64,000 nt of DNA, taken from the NCBI GenBank assembly GCA_951406725.2, contig OX597832.1, positions 5,146,001 to 5,210,000 of the forward strand, written 5' to 3'. Made by a program: the position numbers and the translations under genes. Positions 34,480 to 57,950 of the stretch are shown piece after piece. Positions within the stretch are counted from its first letter, which is position 1. Each line of letters begins with the position of its first letter. The DNA is from Octopus vulgaris. Lineage: Eukaryota. Below the pieces are notes generated by a model. That model saw nothing but the letters and a program-made list of their open reading frames with translations. It did not search any database and had not been told where the DNA came from.

Positions 34480-34516
<37 letters not shown>

Positions 34517-34771: not shown

Positions 34772-34772
34772 C

Positions 34773-34845
<73 letters not shown>

Positions 34846-34887
34846 AGATAGATAGATAGACAGACAGACAGATAGATAGATAGATAG
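34772..34887. repeat. Compound microsatellite (GT)n(AT)n(GATA/GACA)n
   Basis: Read directly; many other (TA)n, (CA)n and (ATT)n tracts occur across the window. Confidence 0.95.
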
Positions 34888-36801
34888 GTACAAGCATTTT
34901 CGAGTAGTTAAGGAGTTCTCTTTGCAAACTAGGAGTCATGAGTTGAATTTCACTGAGTGGTATCTTGGGCAAATGTCTTTATTTTGGTTCAAGCCAAGAC
35001 TCATGTGTGCAACTGATAAAAACATTTATGTAAATGAAAGGCCTAGTCTTGTTAAAATAGTGTCACATATAAACATTAAGGGTGAAAAAACTCAACCATG
35101 TTACACAATAATTTAATTCGTAGGTTATTCACCTGATTGAACAACTGTGTGTACATGTTAAAATTGACAGGAGAGTCCATCACACACACAAGCACAAGAA
35201 TGGCTGAATGAAACTTGCTTTATAACATGGTCTCAAGTTCAGTCACACTGTGAGGTATGTGACACAAGTGTCTTCTTCAATGGTCTCAAGACTGACCAAT
35301 GCCTAGTGAATAAATTTTATAGAAGGAAACTGTTGGAAACGTATTGTGTGCATGTGTGTGTGTGTGTGTGTGTGTGTGTGGAAATGCATGTAAATGTTGA
35401 TATCCTACAGCTTCACTTTAAGCAGAGCAAACACGCCTTGTTGACTGGTCATTTTGTGCTTTCAGAGATCTTTGGATTAAGCAGGCAAGTGTTGACGACT
35501 GGGAAAGCATCCTGCCGCAAATACGCCTGCTCCCACTCCCCACCCATTGCTAGTATAGGAAAATGAACATTAATGCAAGTAAACAAATATAAGTAATTGT
35601 GTGATCATGGCAAAGTTTCAACTCTTTACTATTGGATTAGCAGTCCGGTAGCTTAAACATTATAACCAACTGAAGGATAGAAATAACCCTACCAAAATAA
35701 ATCTGATTAGACAGAGATAATAATAAATATAGTAGATCAGTATTTGCCAATCTTTTTCCACTGACAGCTGGTAAGTCATGTCATAATCTGAGCTACACAA
35801 AGTTAATTTCTTATTTTTTCCTTTATGCAGTGAGAATTTTATTTTGCTTCACATCACTGTTCCAAACCCTTTTATCATGCACTAGTGTTGCAAATCTGAT
35901 TATCATGCACATATCCACTCCAATCCTGATGTCAGTCATTGAAACCTGGTTGAAACAGTGTGTTAAATACTTCATGAATATATATCATAGTTCACAACTT
36001 AAGAGAGAGTTCTGAGATAAGGAACTCAGTGAAGTTTAACCTTTCAGGAATCAAACTGGCTATATCCGGGCAAAATATTCTACCTGTTTTATATCCAAAC
36101 TGGCCAGATGCAACCTCTCATAGCTACCTGACAATGTCATTCAAAAACTAAACAAACACATCATCGAAATCTCAAAGCTATGAGATAAGGCATGAGTAAT
36201 TCAAAAAATGTGAATAAATAAGCATTACATTTGACAAAGTAATCTGTCTGCTAAAGGGTTAATGTGTTATGAACAAGTTTCATTTGACAGATAATGAAGA
36301 TTTATTTCCTGAACAGAGTTAAGGTTGATAAGGTAATATTGATTTCAAATTTTAGCACAAGGCTAACAATTTCGGGGGAGAGGTTAAGTCGATTACATCA
36401 ACTCCAGTGCTCAACTGGTGCTTATTTTATCAACTCTGAAAGGATGAATAGCAAAACCAGCCTTGGCAAAATTTGAACTTAGAACATAAAGACAGACAAA
36501 ATGCTGCTAAGCACTACTTTGCCTAGTGTGCTAACGATTCTGCCAGCTCACTGGCTTTTGATTGGGTAATATTAAATCTCAAATGAAGTTCTGTTAATAG
36601 CAGGCAGATTCATAGCCCTAAAATACCGAACTGAGCAACATCAAATAAAATACATTTTCTAATAAATACTTCTTGATTAGTAATGCAGACTGGAGCAGAT
36701 AAGGCTCAATTTTTAGTGATTTCATTTAATAAAATATTAAACTTTATTCAGATATCTACATATCATGTCTATATAATGTAACATATGTATTAGCATGCAT
36801 G

Positions 36802-36845
<44 letters not shown>

Positions 36846-37194
36846 GTCATTCTGACAAATTGCATTACTGGACAATTGCACAGTTTTGTTAATTACATAA
36901 TTCTTAAAACACCAATCTTGATTAATTGTTTATGATTCTTTTTTTATTCATTCTGATTTTTAAAAATTAGTAAAAAGTAGAATAAAACTAAACATTTGAT
37001 ATGAATAAAATTGTTCTGGAAGCTTCCATTTTAAGAGGAGTTAAAGCAACAGTAGTCACTGTTTTGTTGTTAAATAACTGATGTCAACAGAATCAAACAT
37101 GTTCAAATTATCTTTATCAATTCAGCCCATCAATGTTGAGATTCTGGTGCAATTTTATCTTGTTTTTCTGTGTAATGAAACTCTTCAATATATC

Positions 37195-37588
37195 GTTTCT
37201 TTTACTTGTTTCAGTTATTAGACTATGGCCATGCTGGGGCACTGCCTTGAGGAATTTTTAGTTGAACTAATTGACCCCAGTACTTATTTTCTTGTTGAGT
37301 CAGGTACTTATTCTATAGGTGTCTTTTGCTGAACCACCAAGTTACAGGGATGTAAACACACCAACACTGATTGTCAAACAGTAGTGGGGAACCAACACAG
37401 ACACGAAAACACATGCATACACACACATACAAAACTGGCTTCTTACAATTTCTATCTACCAAATCCACTCACAAGGCTTTGGTCAGCCCAAGGCTATAAT
37501 AGAAGACACTTACCCAAAGTGCCACACAGTGGAAGTGAACCTAGAATCATGTGGTTGGGAAGCAACCTTATTACCACACAGCTACACA
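37195..37588 (-). mobile_element. CORE-like tRNA SINE, full length
   Basis: Reverse complement of the family at 59380-59990. Confidence 0.85.
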
Positions 37589-39084
37589 TATATTTATATT
37601 CATGATAGATAAAATTTGTAAAAAAAAAATCAATTTTTATCCAAGTATTGACAATACTGTTTTTATATTTTTATCATATTATAATTAACTCTATACTGTT
37701 TGCATTAATAGCTACATTAGCCTTGTGAGTCACCCACTTAATTCTTTTCTGTACCAGCACGATCCTAGTTGTTATCTTTGAGTAATTCAAAGTATGTCAA
37801 GATGTAAGGATTTAAGAATGTCAAAGGAAAATGAAAAAAAAAAAAAAAAAACTTTCTTGGCAATAAGCTACATGACTGTCACACCAATACATGTACACTA
37901 AATGTACTGTAAGTAAAAACAAAATAAAATAAAAAAGGTTGTTTTTGTCTAATAATTCATTCAAGTGTAATTTAACCATTAATCTTTATGACCAACAATA
38001 TACTGAAATTGTATAATTTGTTGCTTAGAGTATTAATTTGGTAAATAGGATATTCCTGTTAAATGCAAGTGAATTTAAATATCTTACCATCATAAAGAAG
38101 ACACATTTTATAGTGTTGTCCAAAATAAATTATATTTGAAAACATGTTGAATGTTCATGGCTGAGAAGCCTTTGATGATAGGTCTGGTCAATTAGATCCA
38201 GCCCGAGCTTAAATAACCAACATACATAATAAACTGGACACTGAAGAGAATGCAACAGATTGTCCAGGCTGTCACACTGCATTCAGCAGGTGTGTGCAGT
38301 TTGAGTCTCATTTAATCTTTTAGTGTTTAAACCAGCCATACCTGGCCCAGATATTCTACATGTTTTATATTCACAAGTAAATGAGTAAAATTATGACCAC
38401 AAGTACGGATAAGCATGGAACCTAAAGTGAAGATACCAAGTTTTTTTTTTTTTTATCAACTTCTCTTTTAAGAATTGAATGCTGAAGCTGCAGTGTTAAC
38501 ATCTGTGATTCCAGCATCCAATTCAGCCTCCTAATTCTCATCACTCATGAATACAACCCTACGGTATTTAAACTGCTCTATTGTCAGTTGATGCTTACAC
38601 TGTGTAACAAATTAAAAAATTTTTTTTCTTTGGTCAGTAAGTGTTATTTCCTATTTGCTTCTATCTAGAAACCAAAAGAAGTGACTACTATTCCCTTCAA
38701 ACTTTGCTTTTGTGACCTGGACATCAATGTTTCAAAAAGACTCAATGCTGAGTTACTGAAGGTGAAATATTGTTATAGTAAACATTCTGCTCAATACCAC
38801 AGATTTGCTTGTCAGTTGCTTGACCTTAACCACTTGAGCATGTCGCTTAGTGGCTGACAATATGTGAATCTGATTATGAGCAGGAGTAGTGTGGGGCGGC
38901 ATCATAGCCATATGTTAAGAGGAAGACTTTGGGATTTGAGTAAATGTAAGAAAAGCGAAGTTTGAAGGTAATATTAGCCATTTTCATACTTTTTACAGTT
39001 GCTGCCTAAGGACAAAAATCACGATACACAGTGTTAGTGTGCTAATGTAGCCATTGTAATAATGATGATCATTTCTGCTATTTA

Positions 39085-39430
39085 AATGTGTTATTTGATT
39101 AAGCAACTGCTGCATTCCAGTCATGGTGAAAGGTGGAGAAAGCTCGATGGGGGCAGACTGGGTATAGGAGACAGATTGGGTACAGGGTCAGGACCCAGAG
39201 AGTGTATAGATATAAGTCCAATGCTTCTTGGATCTTAATTTTGCCATGGTAGACAGGTCTTATCAAGCACAGCAAAATGCCAATCCTCTTGTTCCTCTCC
39301 ACTGTGCAGCTAAACATTCTGAGACGTTTTCGCTACTTCATCCAACGTCTTCCTAGGTCTCCTACTTTCACAAGTTCCATCCACTTTAAGGAACAGGCAC
39401 TTTTGTTTTTATACAGCTGTTGTCATCCAT
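39085..39430 (-). mobile_element. RTE LINE 3' fragment
   Basis: Minus-strand RRPRKTLDEVA and W.FAVLDKT remnants. Confidence 0.55.
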
Positions 39431-39607
39431 AAAACTGGCTTTTTGTTGGTTATAATGACAAGGGTTCCAGTTGATCCGATCAATGGAACAACTTACTTGC
39501 AAAATTAATGTGCAAATGGCTGAGCATCCACAGATACACATAATCCTAAACATAGTTCTCAAGGAGATTCAATGTAATACAGATGTGACAAAGTTGTTTT
39601 TTTTAAA

Positions 39608-39797
39608 TACTGGAACCCACAGGGGAAAAGGAAGCGAGGATGCCCGAAGCAGATATGGAAGCATTTTGGAGGAGCTCAGAACCACTGGCCTGACATGGGA
39701 AGCAGTCAAGAAACACGCCGATGACCGCAAAAGATGGAAAACAACTGTTGAGGCTGTATGCTCCACAAGGGGCAAAAAGGATTAAGAAGAAGAAGAC
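39608..39797 (+). mobile_element. RTE LINE 3' end with (AAG)n tail
   Basis: ELRTTGLTWEAVKKHADDRKRWKTTVEAVCSTRGKKD*. Confidence 0.7.
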
Positions 39798-40704
39798 AAC
39801 TCATCTTTGCCAGCTGAATGTACTGGAGCAACATGAAATAACAGTATCTTGCTCAAATACTCAATACTTCACCAGTAGTGAACTTATGACCATAGGATTT
39901 TGAGCTGAATATCAACCACTTAGCCATGCACCCTCTATTGCTAGCCATGTGCAAAATATAACCATACCAGTGTAGCCTTCTCTCCTACACACTACATCTG
40001 ATTCCTCTTATGCCTAATTTTCCTCTCAACACATTTGCATTTTGTCGTATGTCCACACTAATATCCACTGGAGAATACTAGCTTCATTATTTTCCCAGTT
40101 GTTGCATGTACTCTGCATTCAGGGTCCACATCTCACGATCATTGTAGTGTTGCTGTTCATACACAGGCATCATACTATCTGTCACTGTTATTCAAGTGGT
40201 GTCCTTTGTTTACTACCTTCTGTATAAATATATTCAACCATAGGAAAATATTACGTTGTTTGGAAACAGATTAATGCTGGCAATAGTAAAAGCATAGCTG
40301 TATAAAAATCAACCGTAAATTCCAACTGACCTATAACAAGCATGCAAAAGTGGATTTAAAAAGATAATGAAATATATATAAGTATATATCATTTTAACAT
40401 CCACTTTTTCATAGATTAGAATTTGTTGCAGTCAATTTTCTATAGCTGGATACCCTTCCTGTCACCAACCCTCACCTGTTTCCAAGTAAGGTAATATTAC
40501 CCTACCCCTACGCTGGACATGTTTTTTCACAGAAGTTTAAAAACAAAGGACACCGCTTGTGTGATGGTGACATAATTAATGTATAGAGCCAAAACAAGAG
40601 AGCACTAACACACTCACATACATACATGCATACAATGGTCTTCTTTCAGTTTCTGTTGACTAAATTGACTCATAAAGCTTAGGTCTGCCCAAGGCTAGAG
40701 AGTA

Positions 40705-41620
40705 GAAGAGCAGGGCCATCTATCTGAGGGGATTTGTGATTTGTCTGCCTTCCTACTTACTATGACTTTGGTTTTTGCAAAGTTAACTCTGAGGCCCCCT
40801 TAAATTCTAGACATTGTTTCCATACCTGGAGCTTCTTCTCTAGCTCAGGTAGTAATTCAGCTATAAGAGCAAGGACATCAGCATAGAGGAGCTCCCAGGG
40901 GCAGCCTGTCTTGAATTCCTCTGTTATTGCCTGGAGGACTATAATGAATAAGATGGGGCTAAGGACTGATCCTTGGTGAATCCCTACTTCTACTTGGAAT
41001 TCTTCACTATACACGTTGCCAACCCTCACCTTACTGACAGCATCCCTGTACAGGGCTTGCACAGCTCTTACCAGCCACTCGTCTATCTCCAGTTTCCGCA
41101 CTGATCACCGGATAAGGGATTGGGGGACTGTGTCAAAGGCTTTCTCCATGTCAACAAAAGCCAAGTACAGAGGTTTATCTTTGGCTAGGTATTTCTCCTG
41201 CAGTTGCCTTACCAGAAATATAGCATCAGTGACACAAAACCAAACTGCATTTCATCTAGATTAACTCCCTCCCTGATTAGTTGAGCTATGACTCTCTTCT
41301 CAACTTTCATCACTTGATCCAACAATTTGATACCTCTGTAATTATTTCTATCTAAGGCATTACCTTTACCATTGTAGCAGTTTACTATGGTGCTGCTACA
41401 CCAGTCATTGGGTATGACTCCTTCATGAACCACCTTATTTACAATATGGGTGACTAGACCATAATCCACACTGCCAGATATTTTAAGCAACTCAGCAGTA
41501 ATTCCTAATGAGCCAAGGGCTTTCCCTGTCTTCATATTCTTAATTGCTTTATCTACCAGGGTACAGTCAATTTGGATAGCTGGTCCCTCAGTTGGGTCAA
41601 CATTTGGCAGACTCTCTCAG
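40705..41620 (-). mobile_element. RTE-clade LINE reverse transcriptase fragment (frameshifted)
   Basis: MKTGKALGSLGITAELLK..NYRGIKLLDQVMKV..QFGFV; VDMEKAFDTVP; GIHQGSVLSPILFIIVLQAITEEFKTGCPWELLYADV. Confidence 0.92.
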
Positions 41621-44209
41621 ATACAATTCTAAAATAGGTTTAGAAATTTTCTTATATAAGTAGTACTTGTGTCTATTTTCATAGACAACCCTTATAAGTT
41701 CAACCCTTATACCAAATAAAACACAATCTTTCTTATTTATATCCTAACAGAAACTAAATGTAGATAAGAATTCCAATATTCAATCTATGATACATAATCT
41801 CAGGAGGAAGAGGAGTTTGAATAATGAAGTAAACCTCTAAAACATTGAATACAGAAATAAAAGGATGGGAATAATTAATTCTAACTTGAGATGGGTTAAC
41901 TAGTAACTACAAAATTAGAGAAATCAAAGAAAGAATCATTACTTGTAAAAGCACCAAGAATAAATCTAGCTTTTGGATTATTCTGTCAAATGCAATGCTT
42001 ATTTATTTGCATTGCTTTGAATTACACATGCATTATCTTGTAGCTTTGAGATTTTGATGATGTGATTGTTTATTTTTAAAATGACATTGTAGGGTATGTG
42101 TGAGTCTGAATATATATAAGGTTGAATATTTGGGCTGGATATGGCTGGTTTAAATGCTAAAGGGTTAAGAAAGTCATCACACTACTGTTCCGTGTTGAGA
42201 GATTTCACACTTACAATAGCCAGTAAAATAACAGAACAAGTCATAAAAATGATAGTAAAAGAACTAACAATCTGTGTGTGTGTGTGAGTGTGTGTGTGTG
42301 TTAATGTCTCCTTGCCTTAACATCACATGATGGTTGTAAAGAAACGCTACTGTCATTGAAGTAGTGTTCTTTATGTTCAGCCTTCCATGAAAGCATGTCT
42401 AGCTACAGGGAGATATTATGTGTGTGTGTGTATGCATGAAAGAAGTACAAATTGCATCAAAAATCTAGACAAAGTGCTGCGTGTGTGTGAAGGAAATACA
42501 ATATAAATTGTGTATCAAAAAATCTAAAGATAAAGTAAGTCAATACAAGGAAAAAGTAATTCAATGCAACTGAAAAATATATATACACACATACAAAGAT
42601 ACATGTATAGATATTAACAATATCCACCAGCCCACCTCTGGCCACTACAAACCTCCAGAACCCTACTCCAATCTCCACCATTCTTCCTTTCACTCTGAGC
42701 ATACTAAATCTGCCTTTGGTCATGTCAACTGTGTAGCATTATTTCAAATTTCAAATCAGAATGTGAGAACATGAAATTTCTTAATGTATGGATAGTACAC
42801 TTGATCAATTGTAGACTCGACATTCCATTGAGCCAAGGCCATTTATTATGCCACCACTCTCCAACAAATCAGATTCCACCTGCTCTCACTTCCCACCCAC
42901 TGGAACACATCTGCAGCTTCAAAATCCTACTCTCTGACCTTACCCACATCACCTCTCCTCACCGTCAAGAAAAATAGGAGCTTAAGCAAATTCCTAGTTA
43001 AAAGCTCCACAGCACCAATTATACACAATGAGGAACTTTTAAATTATAGCAACCCTTTTCCCAACATTAGCAACACTACAACCATCACTAGGCATACGTC
43101 ACAGTACCACATCACCCAAAACTTAGGCTGCAAATCTTCCAACCTAAAACATTGCACCATCTTCAAACTTTGTGATGGTATTTACACTGGGCAAAAGAGA
43201 GAAACTTTGCCTTGCTGATCACTTTTGCAAATATACTTGAAGCATATTTCTACATATGCAGGGACAGCTGGCCAATACTAATTTCAACGAAATTGGCCAT
43301 TTCATTACATATTTATCAATGTGCAGCATCTCTGAACATAATGGATATGCATACTCAAAGAAACTGAAAGAAAAATATTTCATATTCAGTTTCAGAACCA
43401 TGACAGAAATGATTAAAAGTGAACATTTTTCCCCTTTAACACACTGACCTTTCTTATTTCAGTATTAGCATTTCAATCCTTCATCTGCTCCCTCTTACCT
43501 TATTTTATCCCTCCACCTTACTCTTACAAGCTTCTCTTCTTTTTTTCCATTTATCTTTCCTTCTCCCACTCTAAACTAATTTCACTCTTCCATTAAACCT
43601 GTGTGTGTTTCAAGTTGTTTTGCATTTCATAAAGTTTTAAATCACTAAATATATATGATATAAAACTCCATTGTCTTTCTTTGCCCCCTATCCATGAACT
43701 CTGAAAAAAATTACAATCTGAACACTTGAATACTCCCCACAGTAATTTCAAAATATTTCTTGAAATATTAAAAGACTATGAGTAGACCTCCACCAGTCTG
43801 CTTAGAGTATTTGCTATCAGATGACACACATAGCTGGTCAAGTATTTTTCACATTCTCAAAACTTCAAGTAACACAAGGAGATAAGACAACTTGTTAATA
43901 AATACAAATCCAACTATATGAGCTGAGTGCTACTTCAGTTCATTTGTTGCACTATATATATATATATATATATAATTACATATGCATACATGTATGTATG
44001 TGTGGAGGGACATGGCTTAGTGGTAAGGGTGTTGGACTCATGATCATAATTGTTGTTTCGATTCCTGGAACAGGCAATGCATTATGTTTTTGAGCAAAAC
44101 ATTTCATTTCACATTGCTCCTGTCCACTCAGCTAGTAAAAATGAGTAATCCTGCAATAGGCCAGAGTCCCATTCAGGGAGAAATATATATATGTGTGTGT
44201 GTATATATG

Positions 44210-44400
44210 TAGGAGAAGAATTCACAGAAAAAACAAAAGACGAAGACAGGTGGTGTAAACAACAAACAGATGTATTAGTATAAAGCTCGGGAAGTGAAAA
44301 AGTCTTTAACGTTTCGAGCCTACACTCTTCCACAGAAAGGAACACAAAGAAACAAGGAGAGAAAATAAAGAATGTGAAGTGGCTAGCAATCTATCATGGC

Positions 44401-44402
<2 letters not shown>
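44210..44402 (-). mobile_element. Short Penelope-terminus-like element with variant hammerhead, flanked by TA-rich microsatellite
   Basis: Minus strand CCTTT-CTGTGGA-A-GAGT gtag GCTC-GAAA-CG-TT-AAAGA at 44340-44303. Confidence 0.65.
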
Positions 44403-44443
<41 letters not shown>

Positions 44444-44446
44444 TTA

Positions 44447-44911
44447 ACAGAATGAGATAAAAATCCAAGACTGTAAAGATTTCTGAACATTTATAAATAG
44501 ATCTTGCAGCTGTTTCAGGGATATTTTATATATCTCTTCATTGGAGACAGCGTGAGAAAATGGTTAAGCAATAGTTATTCTAGATAAGATATGAAATAGA
44601 GAGTGAAGTGGAGGAATGAAAATAGACGTGAGATATGCAAGGATGTTGTATCTTCAGTTCCATTATTTAGGCAAAATGGTATACATATAAGATTCCTGTA
44701 CGTTGTGATTAAGTTCCAATAGTATTTAAAATTGTTCATTCCAAGCATAGAGTTTGCAAATGGTGTTATTGAATCGAGGGTTATTTTGAAGTCATTTTTT
44801 CACACGGTTTCTGATGAAGGGAGATATAAAATATCCCAGAAATAGCTGTAAGACCTTCTATTTATAAATGTTCTGAAATCTTTACAGCCTTGGATTTTTA
44901 TCTCATTCTGT
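44447..44911. mobile_element. Inverted pair of Penelope pseudo-LTR-like ends, each with a hammerhead motif
   Basis: About 120-bp arms 44447-44566 and 44793-44911; plus strand GGTTT-CTGATGA-..GATAT aaa ATATC..-GAAA-TAGCTG-TA-AGACC at 44806-44855; another copy at 47823-48020. Confidence 0.7.
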
Positions 44912-45219
44912 CAATTTTTTTATATATATATATACACATGCTGACATATGACCTACATTGGACTCCTCATTCGCTTAACTATAGTCTGTCCATAGCACTT
45001 ACTCAACATTACCTGACACCTTTGGGTCTTCTTGACACTATTACCTCTCATAACACATACATACATATATATATGCCAGAGAAACTGGGGAAACTTGCCC
45101 TATGCTCCTTATGGAGTGACATAAACACACACACACATACACACAGAGGAAAGCATGTGCATGTGCATGTATATATATATATATATATATATATATTTTT
45201 TCACTTTCCCATACAAAGA

Positions 45220-47000
45220 ACTACCACACCCTAAAATTAAGCTCAATACCAGTCGAAAGGCATAGGGAATTATATATGAACTCAAAAACAATAACAACAT
45301 TATAACTAAGGAAGCAGATAAGGGAACTGCTGTAAATATTATGGATGCTGAATGCTACAAAAGTGCTGTATTATCTCTGCTACATGATACAACCTATTAT
45401 GAAAAGGTAAACATTTACCAAAGATCAAAGACGATGACAAAACTCAACACTCATTCACCAACACCAAAATGCTTTAACAAACAAAGAATGTGACTACATA
45501 ACTCATTTTGAATGCAAAACTAGCTACTTCTACAGTCTCCCCAAAATTCATAAGAACCAAATCTGTAAAGAATCAATTTCTAATAGTATAAACATGCAAC
45601 ATCTCACTGAGCTTAAATTTAGATCAGTTGTACCAGGTCCTAAGTGTGAAACACACTGACTCAACAGTATTTTAGATATATTACTGAAACTTATCTTAAA
45701 ATACATACTGAATCTTGTAAAGGATGACATAGACTTCTTAAACCACCCCTCAAAATCTGTCTACAAAGATACCATTATTGTACTATTTGATGTAGTAAAC
45801 TTCTATACCATGATCCTGCACCAACATGGACTAAAGCCAATAAGTTTCTGGCTTGAAAACTCCCTCATGAAATCCCAGACAGAACTGGAAAATGTTTCAT
45901 CATTGAAAGACTAAAATTCATCCTTGGAAATAACTTCTTTGACTTTAACGGCAATATTTACAAGCAAATATCTTGGATTGTGATGGATACAAAAGTTGTT
46001 ACAACTTGGGCCAATGAAGTCATGGTATATATGGAGGTTCAGATATATGAACAATCTAAGTTTAAATATGGCTTCAACTTCCATAAGTCTTTACTAGAAA
46101 ACTAGAAATGTTACTTAGATGACTGAGTGATTTTGTGGACACACTTTTGACCAGCTTATTGATTTCAAAAGCCTAATTATCTGCATAAACAATAGTATTA
46201 ACTTCACAATGGAAGACAGTAAAACTCAACTACCATTCTTGGACATTCTAATAATCAAAACAGACATTCATTACAAACCAACATGCCAACGCAATAAATA
46301 TTGAAGAATTATGAAAAATAAAAAACACTTCAGATACACCCAATACTCTACTCTTATTACAACACACAACCCCCAAAACATTATCCACCAGAACATTTTG
46401 CTACTGAGACAAGACCCAAGAATGAAACAAACACTTGAAATATACAAAATAATCATAATCAAAAGACAACTCAAAATCCTTAAAAAAAACTACTCATCAG
46501 CACTAAATTACCTTCCACAAATCCCACACCAACAATCAAAAAGTGTAGACCCTCTTGTGGCAATCTCATTGAAGACAAAAGACATGAACTGAAATCATGA
46601 GAGATTTTTATCATTAAAAACAATCATTTAACTTGTTTGTCAAGAAATATAATATATGTTATTAAATGTAAAGGATGTTACACAGATCGAATAAAACCCA
46701 CTCTCAGAAATAAACTAACTATTCATCTCAACAAATACAATACCCCAGTACTAAACAGATCCCATTGAGAGGACACATAGACATATGTGCAAAAAATATT
46801 TCTCCCAAATTCCAAGTCTTCTCATTTTACCTTTGTTCAGTCAAGCACAACCACAGATCAAGTACAAATAAACAAATACATATATTCATACAAAAATACA
46901 ACCAAGACTGAACTAATTTCACTCTTCAATTAAACCTGTGTGCATGCATTTTCAAGTTGTTTTGCATTTCCTAATAGTTTTAAATCACCAACAACTATTT
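45220..47000 (+). mobile_element. Decayed Penelope-like retroelement (RT + GIY-YIG)
   Basis: KEADKGTAVNIMD, FYSLPKIHK, FDVVNFYT, LGNNFFDFNGNIYKQ, CYLDD, FTMEDSKTQLPFLDILI, NIIYVIKCKGC; 3'UTR piece 46910-46990 recurs at 43575-43645. Confidence 0.88.
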
Positions 47001-48015
47001 ACACACAAACTCATTCTACCATTTAACATGTTGAATTTATACAGCTAACAATCTATACTTTGGACACTAATGCACAAATATAGTGGAGAACAAAATTTAA
47101 TGCCTACATATATAAGATACAAAGCATAAATACTCAGCCACTAGGCTACATAGAAACAACTCTTGTCCACTCTATCACATGACAGATTAAATTTAGAGAT
47201 TTGATAGATAGGGACTGTCATTAGATATGTTCACCCAACAGGGTCAGCTTTAGTTTTCCGTGCAAAAATATTCTCACATGATATTGGTTTCAAATTTAGG
47301 CACAAGGCCAGCAAATTTGTCACATGATATTGATGCATGGACTGAGCTGGGAACCTACAAAACTTTCTAAGCCTAATCATGTGGACATCCTCTACTGCAC
47401 TTGACAGATTAAATTCAGGGAGCCTTGATTGTTTGAGACTATTACTAGACACATTCAATCAACTGTGATAGCTTTAACTTACAGCACCTAATATGTTGAC
47501 ACATGACATTTAAGAACGGATGTAGCGAGAGAGTTACAAAAATTTCTAAACCTAATAACAAGATCATCCTCGGCCAATGAAACTGTATCAAAACCAGATA
47601 CTAATTTGTGCCATGTTCTCTATAAAAACAAAAGAAATTTTGAACTCCAGTCAGAAGCAAGACACTTTTGACATAGCCTCATGTCTTTCTATCTCAACTT
47701 TTGAAAATCAGAGAATTATGTGAAACTGGTGAAGTCATTAAAATTTTTTAATAGAAAATCTATGAATCCCAGCGCATTTTCAACTTCTTATATATATATA
47801 TATATATATAAGAATTTTTTATATAATGAGATAAAAACCAAGGCTGTGTAGACATTAGAACATTTATAGATAGGTCTTACAGCTGTTTTCAGGATATATA
47901 TTAATTATATCTCTTCATCGGAGATGGTGTGAGAGGATGGTTAAGTAATAATCAATTTAGATGGGATACAAAATAGAGAGTGAGGTGGAGGAAAGAAAAC
48001 AGATGTGAGATATAC

Positions 48016-48046
<31 letters not shown>

Positions 48047-49823
48047 AATGCACAGTGAAGGAAAATAGGAATTGAAGAAATCCATGTGAATACTTGAGTC
48101 AATACTCCATACAATAAGCCTGGCTAGCAGAATGTCCAGTGAAGCATATAGTAATCCATATAGGTTAAACACACTGAGCAATATGTACAAACTGTAAATC
48201 CAAGGTTAATCACCAATCAATAGGTTGGTACATTAATCATAGAGAATAACAGCAGTCAGATAAACAATGAAAAATTATATTCTTATCTAACTTTATTCAC
48301 CTACAAACGTTTTAAATGGCTTCACAAACTATTTCCATGTTGTACAATGGCTTGTATGCATAATTAATCAATTAATGAATTACTTAATGGAATAGTTAAC
48401 CTCTAATAATCCTCTACAGAGAATAAGTTTTGAAGTTATAGTGGTAGATTTTCAGATTTTGCTACAAAAACTAGCAAAAGTGGGTTTGTAGGTAACACAT
48501 ACATCAAATTACCTTCTCTAATGTACTATATATTTGCCAAATTCACAGTACTGGGAGGTCAAGACATGACTAAGTATTAGAGTGTGTTAGTCTGTGAGAA
48601 TGTAGCTTAGGGAAAATTACAACTGTCTGACAACTTTATTTGCTGGTCAGTCTGTAGTAGAAGAATATTCAAAGAAACTAGTGGATGAGGAAAGGGAATG
48701 GTCAACTGATAACAAAGTAACTGAGTGTAGAATTTATAAGTAAATCATCCATCATTCATCTTCCATGCTGGCATAGGTTGGATGGTTTAACAGAATCCAA
48801 TGAATGAGAGGAATGTGTCATGCTGCAGTGTCTACTTTGGCATGGTTTCTATTGCTTGATATCAATCCTTAAGTCAACCCCTTTACAGAGTGTACTGTGT
48901 TTATATTCATGGCACCAGCACTAGTGAGGTTGCCATGTTGTTTGCAAGACTAAGAACCTTTGTCAGCTGAATGGGGTTACAATAGAGTGGGGGTGCTTTA
49001 TATTCAACGGTGAAAGGTTACAATATGAAGGAAGGGGCCAACTATACACACATATACACACCGATATACATAGACACATACATGCAAATATAAACATATA
49101 TATAATACATAAGAGTATAAAAAATTGGTATCAGGTTCAATTGTGGCATTTATATCTTTAGACATGATGACTGAGTAGCTACATGAGTATAAATCATAAG
49201 AAGGAAGGAAGTAATAAGATGTGCAGATGGACTTTTACAGCTGTTTCAAGAACAGATGCACATATAGCACACCTTATTCAAAACAAACAGTAACTATCCA
49301 TATAGTAGTGACCTATTCCATCATTGGAGGAGATATGAGGTAGAACTTTGGCAAAGAAAATAAATTGAATGTACCTACTATGTAAATTCACATACATACA
49401 CACACATATATACTTTAATAAACAAACGGTTTAAATGTGAGCAACTGTGAGTTTCATGCTCTGACAGTACAACAGTCACAGTAGTCAGATGAGTTTGTAT
49501 AGTGTGCCATGTACTATCCTGTAATCTTTCAGGCTCAAAATAAAATCATAGCTGCTCTATGAGAAAAAGTCAGAAACGCAGAGAGAATAAAAATTAAATG
49601 TAAAACAAAAAAGAGAAAAGGAGTGAGGGGAGGTAAGAGTTGTGTTCCTTTGGTCCTTTAGAATGGGAATTAACAAACTGTTAGAAAGGGTATCTAGCCA
49701 TAGAAACCATGCCAAAGCAGACATTAGAACTTAATGCAGTCCTGTAGTTTGCAAGCTCCTCTTGGACTGCCTAATCAAAACCAGTATGGACATTTAATGA
49801 TGTGTTTTATCTCTCTCTTTATT

Positions 49824-49858
<35 letters not shown>

Positions 49859-49954
49859 ATATACTCACACACACACAAACATGTATGAAAATACATATTG
49901 AAAGTAATTGAAATTGAAACCATATAATAATGAAAGTATTAATAGTGATGTTAT

Positions 49955-50170
49955 TGTTTCACTTTTGACATGTGATACGGAAACAGTATAAGAGATTGCC
50001 GCGGACTCACATTAGACAAGAAGTTGAAAATACTTTTGGCCCATGATACTACATGAAATCAAAGTAAGGCATGTATAAAATTTGAATGAAATCCATTGGG
50101 TAGTTCTCGAGTTTTAGTGATGCACACATACGGACAGACGGATACACATTCCCAGTTTTGTATATATAGA
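49955..50170 (-). mobile_element. Non-autonomous Helitron-like 5' fragment
   Basis: Minus strand begins TCTATATATA followed by a short (CCGT/CTGT)n tract, typical of small Helitron derivatives. Confidence 0.5.
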
Positions 50171-50231
50171 TACACATGTTATAAATACATAAATTATTTT
50201 TAGTTGTGGAGCTATAAAAAGATAAAGCTAT

Positions 50232-50636
50232 GGATCTTTTCGGTTTGAACGGCAGTTTTTTAAAATAATTTCCACGTAACTAAACACTTTTAAACTTCGT
50301 ATACTGGTAGAATGTGTTTATAAAACATCTTTTTCTCTTGGCTTTATTGAGAAAATTCTATAGTTTGTAAGATATTTGTTTTTTTTCTTCAATTTCTGCA
50401 ATTTCAACCAATCAATGACGTCTATTGAGGTGAAAACATTCTGTGCTGTATGAATATGTCCCTCGTTTAAGAAACATTGGGTTTATTTACATTTCTGAAG
50501 AAAAAAAGATACCCTTCCCCCCACCCCTAACCCTAAAACAGGTTGAAATGCAATAGATCGATACTAGGGTCATAATTATGGGTGACAATTTCATATGACA
50601 CTGCTAGAAAATCTGCCGTTCAAACCGAAAAGATTC
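50232..50636. mobile_element. MITE with GG-starting TIRs and perfect 8-bp TSD (Merlin-like)
   Basis: aaagctat|ggatcttttcggtttgaacggcag...ctgccgttcaaaccgaaaagattc|aaagctat. Confidence 0.85.
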
Positions 50637-51041
50637 AAAGCTATAAATAATGGGGCTACTAGCTTAGTGGAGGGGTGTGGTAGGGGCGGTACTTTTCATT
50701 CTGTTGTGGGCAATGTTTTTTGTGGGGTGGGAGGCGGAAAACGGAAGGACCACCCTGAGCGGCACACACTCTAGCTATGCTAGTGAATAGGGCATTGAAA
50801 ATTGAGTTACAAAAACCCTGTGGATGGAAAAATGCTGACAGCTAGCCACAGAACATGAACTCACAACTTCTGTAAACATGAGATATGCTGAAGAGCTCAT
50901 TCATGATGCAGAAAACTTGTAACACAAGGCACTCCTGCTACAACCATTTTAGGACATCTTTTAAATACACAATCAATTGTGCACTGAGAGCTACATTATG
51001 GAATGTGGTTATACTTTTTAGACTTTAAAGGTACATTAATA

Positions 51042-51095
<54 letters not shown>

Positions 51096-51219
51096 GTGCA
51101 TTCGCTGCTGATGAAACACGTGTAGGTCTGGAGAATATGCTGTAAATAACAGTTAAAATTTATGGATGTGAAAAAAATCTCCACTCTCATTATTAATGTT
51201 TTATATATATATATATATA

Positions 51220-51413
51220 GTTAATCCAAACAAGAAAGCACAAATAAACAACAACGCGAGGACGTGGAACAAATATAGTATTATTGGACGCTCAGGAAAG
51301 AAGGAGGGTTTAACGTTTCGAGCAGAGCTCTTCGTCAGGAACATAGGAGAGGGAAAGATCCAGAGAAGGGAAGACAGAGGAAAAAAATCGCCAACGGTAC
51401 ACACACGGTCACA
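51220..51413 (-). mobile_element. Short Penelope-terminus-like element in (TA)n
   Basis: Flanked by (TA)n on both sides; carries the hammerhead at 51342-51308. Confidence 0.65.
51308..51342 (-). ncRNA. Minimal type-I hammerhead ribozyme motif with intact core
   Basis: GTTC-CTGACGA-A-GAGC tct GCTC-GAAA-CG-TT-AAAC: CUGANGA and GAAA boxes, 4-bp helix II, palindromic helix III (AACGTT), one mismatch in helix I. Confidence 0.6.
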
Positions 51414-51420
51414 TTATATA

Positions 51421-51453
<33 letters not shown>

Positions 51454-51769
51454 ATACTTTAATATCTATATAAATACACACACACACACAGATTTCGGAT
51501 GTAGTGTTGACAAGAATCCATCTGCATTTTCTCAGTCCTTCCTTACCACACACACGGTTGTGTGTGTATAAATATGGGTGACTTTAAAGAAAGATTAAAT
51601 AGAAGTATTCACATGCAAAATTGCTATCTTGTGCCTCATAGTGTGCATAGCTTTGGTTTCATTAACTCTTTCTGCCATATAAATACACATACGCGCGCGC
51701 GTGTGAGAGAGAGAGAGAGAGTGTGTGTGTGTGTGCGTGCGTGTTTGTATACACATATGTATATCTCTC

Positions 51770-52147
51770 TCTATATAAACGGCAGTTTGTCTGTGCGTGT
51801 TTCTGTGTGTCTGTTTGCTTGTACCCTCACCCTGACCACGGCTTTCAACCGATTCTGATGAAACTTGACACACACATAGCCCAATGTCATAATTCAAAAC
51901 TAACGCAGCGACAATTTTGAAAAGTTCCCCCACTTCTGAAAAAAATCGATAAATTCGACATGGGGTCGACAATCAGAAACACTAACAGCAAACTGTCTAG
52001 GGGACGCAACTTCACCTTTTTTAACTAAATAAATAATTTACCATAATTTTTTTCCATTTTTTTTGCTATTTTTTGGCTATAACTCTCTAAAAATGCTTTA
52101 TAGTTATTTCCCTTACAAACCTGAGCAACGCCGGGCGATACTGCTAG
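51770..52147 (+). mobile_element. Non-autonomous Helitron
   Basis: 5' TC start, subterminal hairpin cctgagcaacgccggg, 3' CTAG followed by T. Confidence 0.8.
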
Positions 52148-52894
52148 TATTATATATGAGTATTTCAATAATCTTTATTTTCATACACACACACAGCTTA
52201 GCATATACACTTTTCACATTGCCCACTCAAAAAATTTAAAATACATCTGCACCAACATCCACCACCGCACCAACCAACACAACCACACTTGCACCCACAC
52301 ATACACATACCTACACCACGCACTGTTGTTCCCTTTGCTTGTTTCCATGTACAGAAACATTCTGATACATGTATCCATACAAAACCAAGCCCCTTATTAC
52401 CTTCTCATCCCAACCCATAAAATGGCAGTCAACCTCGTTTGTCGACCTTTACCTTCCTCTATCATCCTCCATTCCCTTTGAATTTTTTTAATGCAACTTT
52501 GTAAAAAAAAATCAATTTCCTCGATTTTTTTTCTCTCTTTGTATTTATTTATTATTTTTTTCTGGTAAGAGACTATCATCTCAAGTATTAAACTAATACC
52601 ATATTTGTCAAACTTTCTGCATTGTTCTTTTTAATATCTATCTATCTAACTTGTCCCTCTATTATTGTCTTTTGTGTGTGTGTGTGTGTGTGGGGGGGGG
52701 GGCAAATCAAAAATAAAAACAACAAAAGTCAAAACGATTTACAATGAATATGTTAGGTCGACGATCAGGTTAAGATGGAAAAAAAGGTGTGTGACGTTTA
52801 GAGTATGGCTCTTGGTCAGAAAGAATGGTCTGGAGAGAAGGAAAAGTATAGTCCAAGTAAGCTTTTCTTGGACTATACATGGCCGTGTATATAT

Positions 52895-53155
52895 ACTTAG
52901 TATTTCTTTTGCTGAACAACTACGTTCAAGGATGTAAACACACCAACACCAGTTGTCAAGTGTTAGTGGGGAACAAACAAGCGTATACATTTATATAAAT
53001 GTATATACGATGGGCTGCTTTCAGTTTCCGTCTAACAATAAGGCTTTGGTTGACCTGAAGCTATAGTAGAAGACATTTGCCCAAGGTGCCACGCAGTGGG
53101 ACTGAACACAGAACCAATGTGGTTGGGAAGTAAACTTCTTACCATACAGCCACAC
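52895..53155 (-). mobile_element. CORE-like tRNA SINE
   Basis: Reverse complement of the family at 59380-59990. Confidence 0.8.
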
Positions 53156-53456
53156 AGGTGTGTTTATATGTACGCGCGCGCGCGTTAGACCATCCAACTA
53201 TTACCCCAAAGTTTGTAAACGAATAGGTTTGAAGCACCACAATTCCTGATCAGAGCCTGGATGAGAAATCGATAAGCTTGTACCTAGAGGTTTTGAAACG
53301 TCTACAGTCTAGACTCTAGACAACAACTGGACGTTTTGTTTTTAAACAAATATTTTACTCTAAACCAAATATATTTGCGCTATTCTGTGTATCTCCTTAT
53401 TTAAGAGACTTCGAGATTAAGGTGGTCCCATCATCAAACTTGTGTGTGTATGTATG

Positions 53457-53515
<59 letters not shown>

Positions 53516-54537
53516 GAATGAGTGAACAAACGAAAGAATGTGACACTCAAAACATTCATAAGAAGCTGAGTCAAACTGTTATTATAGGTGTGTGTGTGTT
53601 ATTAAATATCTTTTGCTCTCATAATTTAAATTCTTTGCCTCATGGTAATCAGTTTTTTGTTGACAAAAAGCTGCTCCCATTCACCAATTTACGCCCAAAT
53701 ATCTATTCACTCATACATAATATTTACTCATTATGTATTTTTAAAATACATCGCCGCTCCTATTCACAAGACAAACTATGACAATCAGTCGACCTAACCT
53801 CACACCACACCTATACTGTCTCAGAATAACTAAGCATTTGACAAACTTGAAAATAGCTGGGATAGTCATGGTAAGAATGCCTTTGATCATACGTCAAGTC
53901 TAAATCATGACCAACTCAGGGCTTAAGCAATAACAACAACAACAACAAACAGGTGAGACAACGCAGGGGTGATTTCGACTACAGTTCTGCTCCATCAGAG
54001 CCGAAATAGAGCTAATTATTAACCATCTAGTTAATGTTGTTCTGGTACTAAAAAGAGAAAGATTTTAGAACCGAAACTAATTTAGGTCATATTATCATCA
54101 TTCTGAATTTCGAGCCATTTTTATGATGAGTGTTTTAACGCAAACTTTGCAATTCTAATAATTAAATGTTGTCCTACCAATCTTATACCGTTTAATTGTT
54201 AGTAAAGCAATACTTTGATAGTTTAGGGAAATTGTCTTTTACATTAACATTACACAATTAACAACTGGAAGTAATTATAGCAGTTAGAAAAGAAAAAGAA
54301 AAAACATTAGTAGGTGAACTAGGTTGGAACAGAACTTAGCAAGCCACCTGTATCTTCTTGTGTGAAAGATATACACGTGAGAATGTACAATAAGGGCGAA
54401 CACACACAAAGACACACATTCAGTATAAAAAAGATAGATAGATAGATAGATAAATAGAGAGAGAGAGACAAACAGACAGAGAGGTTTTAATAAAAACACT
54501 AAGGGACCAAAAGAATGGAGGGAAAAAAAATACTCAC

Positions 54538-55775
54538 CTGTTGTTGTTATCAACAGGTTGGGGTAACCATTCTGGCGACCCAATGTTATATATCTGCTGT
54601 AATCTTAATAAATCGGGGCTACTAGCATAATGGTCTAATTTAGGTTTGTCATAAATGATGGGGACAGCATACAAGGGCTCTTCTATGGAGATAGGGACAG
54701 GGGTTAATTTCAATCCAGGCCTTGGTTTCTCATAAACTGTAAGAGGTCTGTGAATTTTCGTCTTGTGAGGTAAACTATAACTTGGATATGAATCGTTGTT
54801 TTTCATATCTTTTTTCATCCTTTTTTCTTCTTTCTTTTTTTCTTTCTTCAATATCTTTTTTAATTTTTTCTCCTCCTTAGAATTATTTCCAAGTATCGCC
54901 AACGAAGGCATACTGGAATATTTGCCCCTGGAATCACTTAAAGGTGATGGAGCATATTGTAACGGTTCATGTCTGGATTCATAGGGTCCGACTAAAATAA
55001 ATTCCCCTGAAGGCTTCGAAATTTTACGTTGTGCTGATATTTTTAAAGGTTGGCTTGAAAGTGGCCAAGGAGACATGTGTGGTTGTTGTTGGTGAAAAAA
55101 GTTCCGATGTGAAGTTACAGGTGGGTCGTGTTCAGTTGACGGCCTGTTAGTGATTGAAAAGTAATTAATAGGTGTGTCGTTTTTTACCTGACGTGACGTC
55201 GCTGTTTCTCCGTGTGACGTCGTCTTATCTTGCCAATCTGTGTCAGAGACGGAATTTTCAGAAACTCCCCTCCCAGAATCTTCCTCCTCCACATTTTCGG
55301 GTAGAATATACCTGGTAACTCTATCATCTAAGGTACAAGGTTTCGAGTCAGGACATTTACAATCGTTAGCTGTTTGTTCTTTTAATGAATCGAAACTTTC
55401 AGAAGATCTGTTGTTGTTTACATTATTTTCAACATCGATTGGTGTGATCACGAAAATATCTTCTCCATTCAAATCAGGACTCGGTTTTTTCTTTAGTTGA
55501 AACAATGGACGACATGGATCTGCATGAATTTTCTCATTTGTATCAGTTTTAGAAATCACAGATTTCTTTTTCAATCGAGATTTTAAAAATGCAAACCCTG
55601 GATGAATGAGATCACTTCGGAATGATGGTGTATTCGAGTTTAAACCATTTGTTAGCTTCGGCGAATTCTCAAAATTATAATTGGAAATATCTACTGGTAA
55701 ATCGTCCTCCTGAGAATTTACAATTAATTTTCCCCCCACATTTTTTTTCTTCAAAGCCCTTTGAGTCATTTTCAT
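54538..55775 (-). CDS. SHANK: Candidate alternative first coding exon of Shank (412 codons + 2 nt, low-complexity N-terminus)
   Basis: 413-aa ORF with in-frame upstream stop (55814-55812); ends at a strong donor CAG|GTGAGT in phase 2, matching the phase-2 acceptor of PDZ exon 1 (AG+T = Ser); same strand as Shank. Confidence 0.7.
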
Positions 55776-57950
55776 TAAAAATATGTAAACATCGACTACA
55801 ATAACTATTCGTTAGTTATAGTTGCTTTTTTATCCCACACCATTTTCCTCTCTTATTAATTACTAGTCTCTTCATCTATTACAGAACTCAAAGACAAGTA
55901 CCAATACTACCAATAAATATTTTAACGAATGAAAGTCGAAAGTTCCTCTGGGAAGGAGCAAAAGAAAAAAAACTTTTGTAGTTAACTTTCATCTAAATAT
56001 CGACCAAATATGATTATTTTGAAAGTAAAAAGAAAAAAAAAAAGTAAAACGAGAATATTCTTGAAGCTTCACCTAAGTATCCTTCTTAGATGAATTTTCT
56101 TTTCCGACCTCGAAACGAAGTCCTGAGTGAAAGTAATCAATAAATGTCAATATACAGGTCCAGAGCTCTATGGAACAAGTTTGTTATTAACGATTAGTAA
56201 ATGGACAGGTAGTATTGTAAAGGAAAGAGAGAGAAGAGTGGGTGATTAATGGCATCAAATGTTAACAATGTAAGTTATTTCCGAGTTAAAATAATCAGCA
56301 AAAGGTAAGGGAGACCTGCAACAGAAAAGCAGCCGTGAAATAGATGTTTGACGAAACCATATCAATGAAAGAAAGGGTGAAGGTAGATAGATGGCGAAAC
56401 AGCTACTTGTTGCTAGGGTAATAAATAAATCAGTTACAAGTAGCAAGTCAGTATTTGTTTTTTTAAACTTCCAAATTATCATTATACTTTCTTTAGCGCT
56501 CCACTGCTTTAGCTTTGAGGACATATTAAATGTTCTTATACTTAGTATAAGCTACATATTTAAAAGGAGCTGGAAATTTTTCATAAAGCCTGTCCTAACC
56601 AATATGTTGCAGTTTCTCCAGTTTAGTGGATGGCAGCTTCAGCGGCCAGCAACTGCCATGGCTAGGTAAACTAATTAGCCACCTGTAACCAATTTGCAGC
56701 ATGACGTGTCAAATGTTTTATTTAATTTTATTTTTGTCAACTTTTACTAGCAGATATTGTTTCAAAGTATAAATTATCAATACTAAAAATAAAATTAGAC
56801 TAAATTATCAGAAAGCTAACAAACAACCCTTTCACAACCATCCACCTCTGTTGCCAAGCATTAAATCCTTTCTTAGATAACACGTTATCTGCAACTGATT
56901 TTTGTTATTAATTAGGATTAACGGGATACTATAAATGTTCTTCTTAGTTTAACGGTATCACACTCTCCAATAGCTTTATGCTGCTTATAAGCATATCGAT
57001 TTTAAAGTAACTTTGTTTTTAAAATGACGCTTGATTTTTAAAAGGCATAGGATCCAGTTACATCCCGAACACAATTTCATTCTCAACTACACCGAGACGT
57101 TTTATTTAAAATATTAAGTTTAAAACAAGATGCATTCGTTTAGACAATAAAAAAAGATTGTATACAGAACATTCATTGCTTTTTTAAACGCGAAAATAAC
57201 TAAAGCTTTATAATTATAATAATAATTAAATTTTGTATCTAATTATGAGTATCTAATAAAGATATATATAGGCATAGTTGAAGTAATGAAAGAAAACAAC
57301 GGTAAAGAGTAAAATAAATTTTTAAAGTTTTAAATTCTAAAATGTCGATTAACGACAACATCAATTTTACTAGTGAGAAGTCGAGACATTTGATAATTCA
57401 TATTGTTCAGGCTGGGAGGATATTTTTGTTGATGTATTTTACTTTTATTTTCAGAAACAGTAGATGTCTGCCTGTATAATAAAAAGGCTGATATCAATAA
57501 AATTTGGTACTGACAATAAACTTAAAAGACACTATTCAGCTCTAACGAAAGTTATTCTTTATCTCCTTTATATAACGTGTTAGGCTAGACAGGTGATAGA
57601 GCGAACATTTTGACTTACAATTTTGATTTCATTCTCAAACCAGTTATTAACTGTAAAAAAAAAAAAACGTTTGTTCTACAACTCGTAATTAACTGCAGCC
57701 ATCCATTTAATCAACTACTCATTTGATAAAATACCACATTTTATATTATATAAAACTTTTATCTTTCTTTTCTCCCTTCCTTTTTTTTTGCAACACAAGT
57801 GAATTATTGATATAAAACCTTCGAACATTTTCTAAATTTATTCATTACATTTTTCGCATATTTATACTAAAATTTCAAAATATTTCGAATTAAATTTCAA
57901 AATAATTCGAATTAAAATTCGGTTTTATTCATATTTAGTACCACTTGAAA
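55776..57950 (-). promoter_or_regulatory. Candidate 5'UTR and internal promoter region of the short Shank isoform
   Basis: No recognisable repeats; CpG looks more frequent than elsewhere (judged by eye); cluster of CACCTG, CCAAT and TGACGT at 56680-56707. Confidence 0.4.

What the first reader, a model, noticed from the sequence alone, without database searches (positions are those of the whole stretch)
54538..55775. Large novel first exon giving an ANK/SH3-less Shank isoform joined right at the PDZ
Seen: a 412-codon exon with an upstream in-frame stop and a phase-2 donor that fits PDZ exon 1 across a 20,670-nt intron. The six exons sum to 4980 nt (1659 aa). The nearby upstream AGs would be phase 1, so it is not a symmetric cassette exon. 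I recognised no ANK or SH3 exons in the window. Established (recalled): mammalian Shank2 CortBP1 also uses a short alternative first exon entering just before the PDZ. Inference: the same isoform logic, ancestral or convergent, but with a much longer, apparently lineage-specific N-terminus.
Basis: partly seen in the sequence, partly recalled or inferred. Interest (0 to 1): 0.7.

Follow-up and report, generated by a model that had tools for sequence, protein, structure and literature searches.

The report
Mollusc-wide alternative start of Shank
An octopus synaptic scaffold gene (Shank) has a real second start exon, shared by octopuses, snails and clams and already in automatic annotations, that swaps the ankyrin head for a floppy arm whose conserved short motifs likely act as phosphorylation-controlled docking sites.

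Summary
The exon is real: 1238 nt, phase-2 donor, joined to the PDZ exon; six exons give 1659 aa. RefSeq already predicts this protein in Octopus sinensis (X3) and O. bimaculoides (X2). Three public contigs stop matching exactly at the donor. The ankyrin exons lie 10-61 kb beyond the window, so this is an internal alternative start of one Shank gene. (1) It is not a narrow lineage novelty: cephalopods, gastropods and bivalves carry a homologous 410-690-aa first exon joined at the same site. It ends in a conserved, unnamed module: two SxPxL motifs, a Lys/Glu helix, YxxP and a VPI strand. A profile without cephalopods scores the octopus exon 42.6 bits against at most 7.9 for shuffles. No named non-mollusc hit appeared among 1.84 billion proteins. 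(2) 'SH3-less' does not distinguish the octopus isoforms, because the long form also lacks a whole SH3. Promoter and function are inferred. The scan noted similar alternative first exons in other PDZ scaffolds, none in Shank.

The parts
54538..55775 (-). Alternative first coding exon (412 codons + 2 nt), predicted mostly disordered
   Evidence: contigs end at 54538; AlphaFold mean pLDDT 47
55767..55769 (-). Second ATG (Met3), likely the conserved start: M-T-Q-R aligns with the N-terminus of orthologues; A at -3, whereas the first ATG has T
   Evidence: use of this ATG is inferred
55759..55760 (-). Weak in-frame phase-2 AG used by the 2181-aa O. vulgaris gene model to fuse the ankyrin exons to this exon
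   Evidence: 9 of 20 pyrimidines; contigs of X1, X4, X6 and X11 cross it unbroken
55948..55969 (-). Polypyrimidine tract + AG upstream of the ATG; candidate acceptor of a 5'-UTR intron (possible weak donor near 56072), use not shown
   Evidence: contigs of X1 and X4 cross it unspliced
54900..54917 (-). Conserved motif 1, SSMPSL (S-[MT]-P-[ST]-L), aa 287-292
   Evidence: 18 of 18 N-termini; invariant columns
54792..54878 (-). Lys/Glu-rich helix, aa 300-328, the only confidently predicted structure
   Evidence: pLDDT 84-91 in blocks 301-320; 20-28 K/E/R in 30 residues in 17 of 18 sequences
54723..54737 (-). [VIM]-Y-x-x-P motif (VYEKP), aa 347-351
   Evidence: 13 of 18; Y348 invariant in 10 of 10 aligned
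54678..54719 (-). P-x-L-x-L-x-x-VPI strand-like motif, aa 353-366
   Evidence: 16 of 18
54588..54629 (-). Conserved motif 2, Y-x-S-x-P-D-L-x-R-x-E/Q-Q-V/I-Y, aa 383-396, 16 residues before the splice junction
   Evidence: SxPD[LM] 18 of 18, EQVY-like 17 of 18; short helix 387-396 at low confidence
33868..54537 (-). Phase-2 GT-AG intron, 20,670 nt; its acceptor is shared with the 40-kb intron of the ankyrin isoform
33794..33867 (-). Shared exon: start of PDZ
32731..32852 (-). Shared exon: PDZ middle
31438..31609 (-). Shared exon: PDZ end
30166..30255 (-). Shared 90-nt exon after the PDZ
24825..28108 (-). Large last coding exon: proline-rich region and SAM

Best explanation
This exon is the alternative first coding exon of an Octopus Shank gene, joined to the PDZ exon in place of the ankyrin exons and conserved across cephalopods, gastropods and bivalves; it is likely driven by its own internal promoter, and its conserved motifs likely serve as phosphorylation-controlled docking and membrane-contact sites. 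Shown: exon, phase, junction position, upstream ankyrin exons, homology across three mollusc classes, motif conservation. Predicted: disorder plus one charged helix. Inferred from recalled consensus patterns, none tested: the two S-x-P-x-L motifs about 100-140 residues apart bind a 14-3-3-type dimer once phosphorylated; [VIM]YxxP is an Abl/Src-type site read by SH2 adaptors; the net-basic helix contacts acidic membrane or acts as a rigid spacer. Choosing this start would give a PDZ-proline-rich-SAM scaffold without the FERM-like and ankyrin inputs. It would also replace the residues just before the PDZ, which in mammals tune SAPAP binding.
For: RefSeq O. sinensis X3/X4 and O. bimaculoides X2 carry this N-terminus; X1 forms carry ankyrin instead. 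Ankyrin-side exons map at extended coordinates 124,866-73,845 and end at a phase-2 donor AA|GTAAGT. In 11 of 12 species pairs the two isoforms diverge 14-15 residues before the PDZ GYGF/GFGF loop; the twelfth (Mya) failed the pattern but shows the same join by eye. Contigs from 3 of 4 runs stop matching exactly at 54538 and go on with other letters (30, 30 and 4308 nt; 3742 coding nt are expected downstream), with little or no cover in the intron beside them. Logan-derived 1805-, 1844- and 1698-aa proteins run from MTQ/MSQ through PDZ to SAM. Eight of 8 short Logan ORFs checked stop 1-6 residues past the join, as read-through of one large exon into its intron would. A profile of 14 non-cephalopod N-termini scores the octopus exon 42.6 bits, and 19.7 with the K/E helix masked; the best of 500 block shuffles scores 7.9. 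The 1.84-billion search gave 30 hits at E<=1e-10; all 9 of those that carry a name are molluscs.
Against: The letters beyond 54538 in the contigs were not displayed, so the junction partner in these runs is inferred from length and from protein records. Contigs cannot show a start site, so no promoter is shown, and a strong acceptor at 55948 hints at an upstream non-coding exon. No binding or phosphorylation evidence of any kind. The motif patterns were drawn from the same related sequences that they were counted in. The basic residue at -3 that is typical of 14-3-3/AMPK-type sites (recalled) is missing from motif 2 and variable in motif 1. YxxP is absent in 5 of 18. One O. vulgaris and one Haliotis rubra gene model place the exon internally.
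Confidence: 0.6

Rival explanations
1. The exon is an internal cassette, spliced from the ankyrin side through the phase-2 AG at 55759, giving a 2181-aa Shank with both heads.
For: O. vulgaris CAI9736528.1 has exactly this join. The 1221-nt exon would be symmetric. H. rubra XP_046581760.1 also has the exon internally.
Against: The acceptor is weak (9 of 20 pyrimidines). It would cut off the M-T-Q start, which is conserved in 16 of 18 orthologues. Contigs in 4 of 4 runs cross 55759 unbroken. The two fused models use different joins. None of the O. sinensis X1-X4 or O. bimaculoides X1-X2 records seen has it.
Confidence: 0.07
2. The isoform is real, but the module works mainly as a structural or targeting element (a charged helix as nuclear or membrane signal, or short motifs folding onto the PDZ), not as a phospho-switch.
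For: The helix is the only confident structure and the module is net basic, +8 to +22. Motif 2 keeps a near-fixed distance of 28-48 residues from the join. N-terminal extensions govern Shank PDZ binding in mammals (review passage).
Against: Invariant Ser and Tyr in linear-motif-like settings within disorder. Two similar SxPxL cores.
Confidence: 0.28
3. The exon is an octopus-specific, recently gained and largely neutral N-terminus.
For: A single-sequence word search found only the O. bimaculoides protein. No Pfam family. The first 250 residues are poorly conserved between classes.
Against: Homology to gastropod and bivalve exons in a non-circular test. Same junction. 225 of 250 and 151 of 161 residues identical between the two Octopus species, against 1021 of 1085 for the constitutive last exon.
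Confidence: 0.03

Closest known systems
RefSeq-predicted isoforms: O. sinensis XP_029648095.2 (X3), O. bimaculoides XP_014775815.1 (X2), Haliotis rufescens XP_046359234.2 (X4), Mytilus californianus XP_052102980.1 (X3)
   Same: Same protein architecture and same junction; the O. sinensis record differs from the window exon at 1 of 412 residues.
   Different: Automatic models only. I found no paper that notes the shared exon or its motif module.
Mammalian ProSAP1/CortBP1 isoform of SHANK2 (exon 1c)
   Same: An alternative start giving a Shank that begins at the PDZ; three promoters in human SHANK2 (passages of PMC3276563). Fish Shank proteins have S-D at the matching position before the PDZ.
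   Different: Its N-terminus is short (about 30 residues; recalled, not fetched). No vertebrate protein was named among the profile hits. The mollusc exon is 410-690 aa or longer, with a conserved module. A separate promoter is shown for the mammal, not here.
C. elegans SHN-1
   Same: A Shank without SH3 (passage of PMC8937234), like the Octopus long form.
   Different: Its isoforms were not described in the passages read, and no homology to the module was found.

Membership tests
Shank/ProSAP family gene | FERM-like N-terminus + ankyrin repeats encoded in the gene | tested here: met
   Exons beyond the window on the same contig and strand; FERM_f0 and Ank in the long isoform; best PDB hits are SHANK3
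Shank/ProSAP family gene | Shank-type PDZ | tested here: met
   Pfam PDZ aa 420-508; the ten best PDB hits of the O. bimaculoides stretch are Shank1/Shank3 PDZ
Shank/ProSAP family gene | C-terminal SAM after a proline-rich region | tested here: met
   SAM_1 aa 1576-1636
Shank/ProSAP family gene | SH3 domain | tested here: not met
   No Pfam SH3 in the O. sinensis long form. The first-half SH3 exon was not found in 134 kb: best 7 bits, against 78 for the Sepia record. Not disqualifying: SHN-1 lacks SH3 and it is poorly conserved in molluscs.
ProSAP1/CortBP1-type PDZ-starting isoform | Alternative N-terminus joined directly before the PDZ | tested here: met
ProSAP1/CortBP1-type PDZ-starting isoform | Own intragenic promoter / transcription start | not testable with these tools
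   Only contigs were available; their 5' ends fall at 55816-56485 and cannot show a start
ProSAP1/CortBP1-type PDZ-starting isoform | Sequence homology of the first exon to SHANK2 exon 1c | tested here: inconclusive
   No named vertebrate hit in the profile search, but a 30-residue exon would be hard to detect and exon 1c itself was not compared
ProSAP1/CortBP1-type PDZ-starting isoform | Cortactin binding and brain-restricted expression | not tested
   Run tissues are coded; no binding test
14-3-3 / SH2 phospho-docking motifs | Phosphorylation-dependent binding | not testable with these tools
   Only pattern conservation; consensus recalled

The most novel reading that the evidence does not exclude
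Molluscs invented, before cephalopods, gastropods and bivalves split, a second Shank head: an unnamed phospho-switched docking module that replaces the small-GTPase/ankyrin head through promoter choice. In octopods, which appear to have lost the SH3, this promoter switch is the main way to make two differently regulated synaptic scaffolds from one gene.
Probability: 0.3. Interest if true: 0.62.

Novelty: new variant of a known kind. Interest (0 to 1): 0.42.

Why it matters
The proteome diversity of mollusc synapses has been compared with vertebrates mainly by gene counts (one Shank against three; PMC9282427). A 500-million-year-old (age recalled) alternative head shows diversification inside the single gene. 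It gives four short, mutable motifs to test in Aplysia, Lymnaea or cephalopod neurons. It also corrects the 2181-aa O. vulgaris gene model. The isoform itself is already in databases and the logic is known from mammals, which limits the surprise.

Tried and rejected
No RNA holder listed on record for the exon (runs were only guessed to be RNA). Run X4 covers exon and intron evenly and behaves like DNA or pre-mRNA. A repeat swamped the joint and loose-end tables, so the spliced letters were not shown. Word-based searches were insensitive: 1 hit with the single exon, 2 hits with the alignment. Pfam: 0 families for the octopus exon, only weak compositional hits (E 0.006-0.03) in other members. 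PDB profile search: 3 chance hits at E>=0.039. ESM Atlas: best 0.76 (Dendrin, two arthropod clusters), below the chance level, and nothing for the abalone module. AlphaFold of module+PDZ gave pLDDT 49, pTM 0.22, with the PDZ itself poorly folded, so no verdict on packing; no fold search was run on these models. Homology of the octopus pre-PDZ exon to the Shank3 N-terminal extension was not detected: the phmmer match to 5izu starts at the PDZ. A short CortBP1-like first exon elsewhere in the 40-kb intron: 6 short ATG-to-donor candidates besides this exon, none convincing and none with an AG|GT donor. The short Lottia start is probably a split gene model, since the neighbouring locus tag carries the exon. 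Five of 19 non-cephalopod ankyrin-less PDZ records lacked the module (Lottia, Liolophura, Batillaria, Sinanodonta, Owenia); they look incomplete and say nothing about range. The two weakest profile hits (E 1e-4, 9e-4; one fungal) are treated as chance. No complex prediction was run: no mollusc partner sequence was at hand.

Full report
Observation. The minus-strand ORF 55775-54538 exists as described, with an upstream in-frame TAA and a CAG|GTGAGT phase-2 donor. It fits the acceptor at 33867 across 20,670 nt. With five downstream exons (33867-33794, 32852-32731, 31609-31438, 30255-30166, 28108-24825) it gives 4980 nt. The exon is single-copy in the 2.8-Gb genome; the six other DNA matches are short and fall on the lysine-rich stretch. 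The last exon is identical to an Octopus vulgaris record.

It is already annotated. The exon matches O. bimaculoides XP_014775815.1 at 92% over its whole length. O. sinensis isoform X3 is 1659 aa and maps to the same six exons. The X1 isoforms of both species begin with FERM-like and ankyrin domains. Those exons lie beyond the window, at extended coordinates 124,866 down to 73,845, and end at a phase-2 donor. The finding's exon therefore sits inside the 40-kb intron that precedes the PDZ in the long isoform, about 18 kb below its donor.

Transcript evidence. In 3 of 4 runs laid (X1, X6, X11) a contig matches the exon and stops matching exactly at 54538. It continues with 30, 30 and 4308 other letters, and cover in the neighbouring intron is near zero outside repeats. 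Thirty letters is what an assembly-graph branch leaves where two upstream exons merge on one acceptor; that reading is my inference. 4308 letters fit the 3742 coding nt downstream plus a 3' UTR. The letters were not displayed. The fourth run covers everything evenly. The 5' ends (55816; lower cover to 56198 and 56485) cannot define a start. A strong acceptor at 55948 could mean a non-coding exon upstream, but contigs of X1 and X4 cross it unspliced.

The cassette rival. I judge that model an artefact. The site has 9 of 20 pyrimidines, and contigs of all four runs cross it. It would remove the conserved M-T-Q start. The only other fused model seen (H. rubra) uses a different join. The conserved start is probably the second ATG at 55769 (410 codons), which has A at -3.

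It is mollusc-wide. Among 85 relatives of the last exon, I read 19 non-cephalopod ankyrin-less PDZ records; 14 have a 459-692-aa N-terminus ending in the same module, and 5 look incomplete. With four cephalopod records (18 in all: 4 cephalopod, 3 gastropod, 11 bivalve or bivalve-like, not independent) the counts are: M-[TS]-[QH] start 16, S[MT]P[ST]L 18, [VIM]YxxP 13, P-x-L-x-L..VP 16, SxPD[LM] 18, EQVY-like 17. A K/E/R-rich stretch follows motif 1 in 17 of 18. The patterns were drawn from these sequences, so I ran a non-circular test. A profile from the 14 non-cephalopod N-termini scores the octopus exon 42.6 bits, 19.7 with the helix masked and -3.4 reversed; the best of 500 block shuffles reaches 7.9. 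The two isoforms diverge 14-15 residues before the PDZ carboxylate loop in 11 of 12 pairs, and by eye in the twelfth. Eight of 8 short Logan ORFs in the cuttlefish-like, mussel and abalone clusters run from an N-terminal Met to 1-6 residues past the join, and many profile hits end the same way. This suggests one large exon in all three classes.

Range. The profile search of 1.84 billion proteins gave 32 hits at E<=0.001 and 30 at E<=1e-10. Nine of the 30 carry a name, (4) or (5; I looked up 10 of the 27 new ids), and all nine are molluscs. The rest are unnamed or were not looked up, so a chiton, annelid or other relative among them is not excluded. Nucella has two Shank proteins and both carry the module. 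I recall that Drosophila Shank also has an ankyrin-less isoform, but the two fly papers were not held and I could not check it.

Structure. No Pfam family, PDB match or Atlas cluster fits. AlphaFold predicts disorder with one confident helix at aa 300-328 and a weak one at 387-396. The module is net basic, +8 to +22.

SH3. The Octopus long isoform has no Pfam SH3, while a cuttlefish-cluster isoform does and its sister isoform skips the first half. The first-half exon was not found in 134 kb without gaps (best 7 bits against 78), and the retained second half has drifted. In Octopus the real contrast between the isoforms is the FERM-like/ankyrin head plus the residues just before the PDZ. The supplement of PMC9282427 notes poor SH3 conservation in molluscs; skipping or loss of that half-exon would explain it (inference).

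Mechanism. An internal promoter (inferred) yields a PDZ-proline-rich-SAM scaffold whose head is a long disordered arm with four short conserved motifs and a charged helix. By recalled consensus patterns, the paired SxPxL sites suit a 14-3-3-type dimer, [VIM]YxxP suits Abl/Src kinases and SH2 adaptors, and the basic helix suits acidic membrane. None of this was tested. The swap also replaces the segment whose mammalian counterpart governs SAPAP binding (review passage); homology of that segment was not detectable. I put the isoform structure at about 0.9 and the phospho-docking function at about 0.5-0.6.

Literature seen. PMC3276563: passages (three SHANK2 promoters; ProSAP1 starts with the PDZ). 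PMC9740047: passages. PMC9282427: passages of the main text and places 1-11 of 42 'Shank' mentions in supplement 1; its figures could not be seen. PMC8937234, PMC5432211, PMC12724498, PMC6709880, PMC11328446: passages. Zeng 2016, Harris 2016 and Wu 2017: not seen. The searches 'Shank + mollusc + alternative first exon' (0 papers), 'Shank + Aplysia + Octopus + postsynaptic' (9 listed) and 'Shank + isoform + lacks ankyrin + invertebrate' (12 of 862 listed) showed no description of this exon. Subscription journals and preprint supplements were not searchable.

Earlier scan notes. None near this place and none on Shank; five notes describe old alternative first exons in other scaffold or signalling genes, which suggests the theme is common.

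Verdict. A real, old, already auto-annotated alternative start of Shank, with a conserved motif module that I did not find described. New variant of a known kind; interest 0.42.

Noticed in passing
between extended coordinates 92,053 and 80,414 (G000:C19:5226414-5238053): The first-half SH3 exon, a cassette in cuttlefish-like, abalone and bivalve Shank, was not found; Octopus and Argonauta long isoforms keep only a drifted second half. Likely loss of the Shank SH3 in octopods.
   Followed up: partly
window 55948-56072 (-): Strong polypyrimidine acceptor and a weak possible donor 125 nt upstream: candidate 5'-UTR intron of the alternative transcript.
   Followed up: partly
window 25863-26088 and 26401-26488: Coding tandem repeats (39 nt and 21 nt) in the last exon whose copy number differs between Octopus species; O. 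sinensis X1 and X2 differ by 13 aa, one 39-nt unit, perhaps an allele annotated as splicing.
   Followed up: partly
window 54540-54551 (-): AAC triplet run at the exon end; O. sinensis X3/X4 and O. bimaculoides differ by one Asn here.
   Followed up: no
window 40760-41616 (-): Broken LINE-type reverse transcriptase fragments in the intron (Pfam RVT_1 on one of two pieces).
   Followed up: partly
window about 59275-60200: Very high-copy short repeats (SINE-like) with summed contig depth in the tens of thousands in all four runs.
   Followed up: no
P0025 and P0153 (Nucella lapillus): Two Shank proteins in one snail, both with the module; Biomphalaria P0152 has a much longer version (about 1160 aa before the PDZ).
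   Followed up: no
window 24828-28108 (-): Several PPxxF-like motifs (Homer-type, recalled) and a further SxPxL motif (RSTPNL) in the shared last exon.
   Followed up: no
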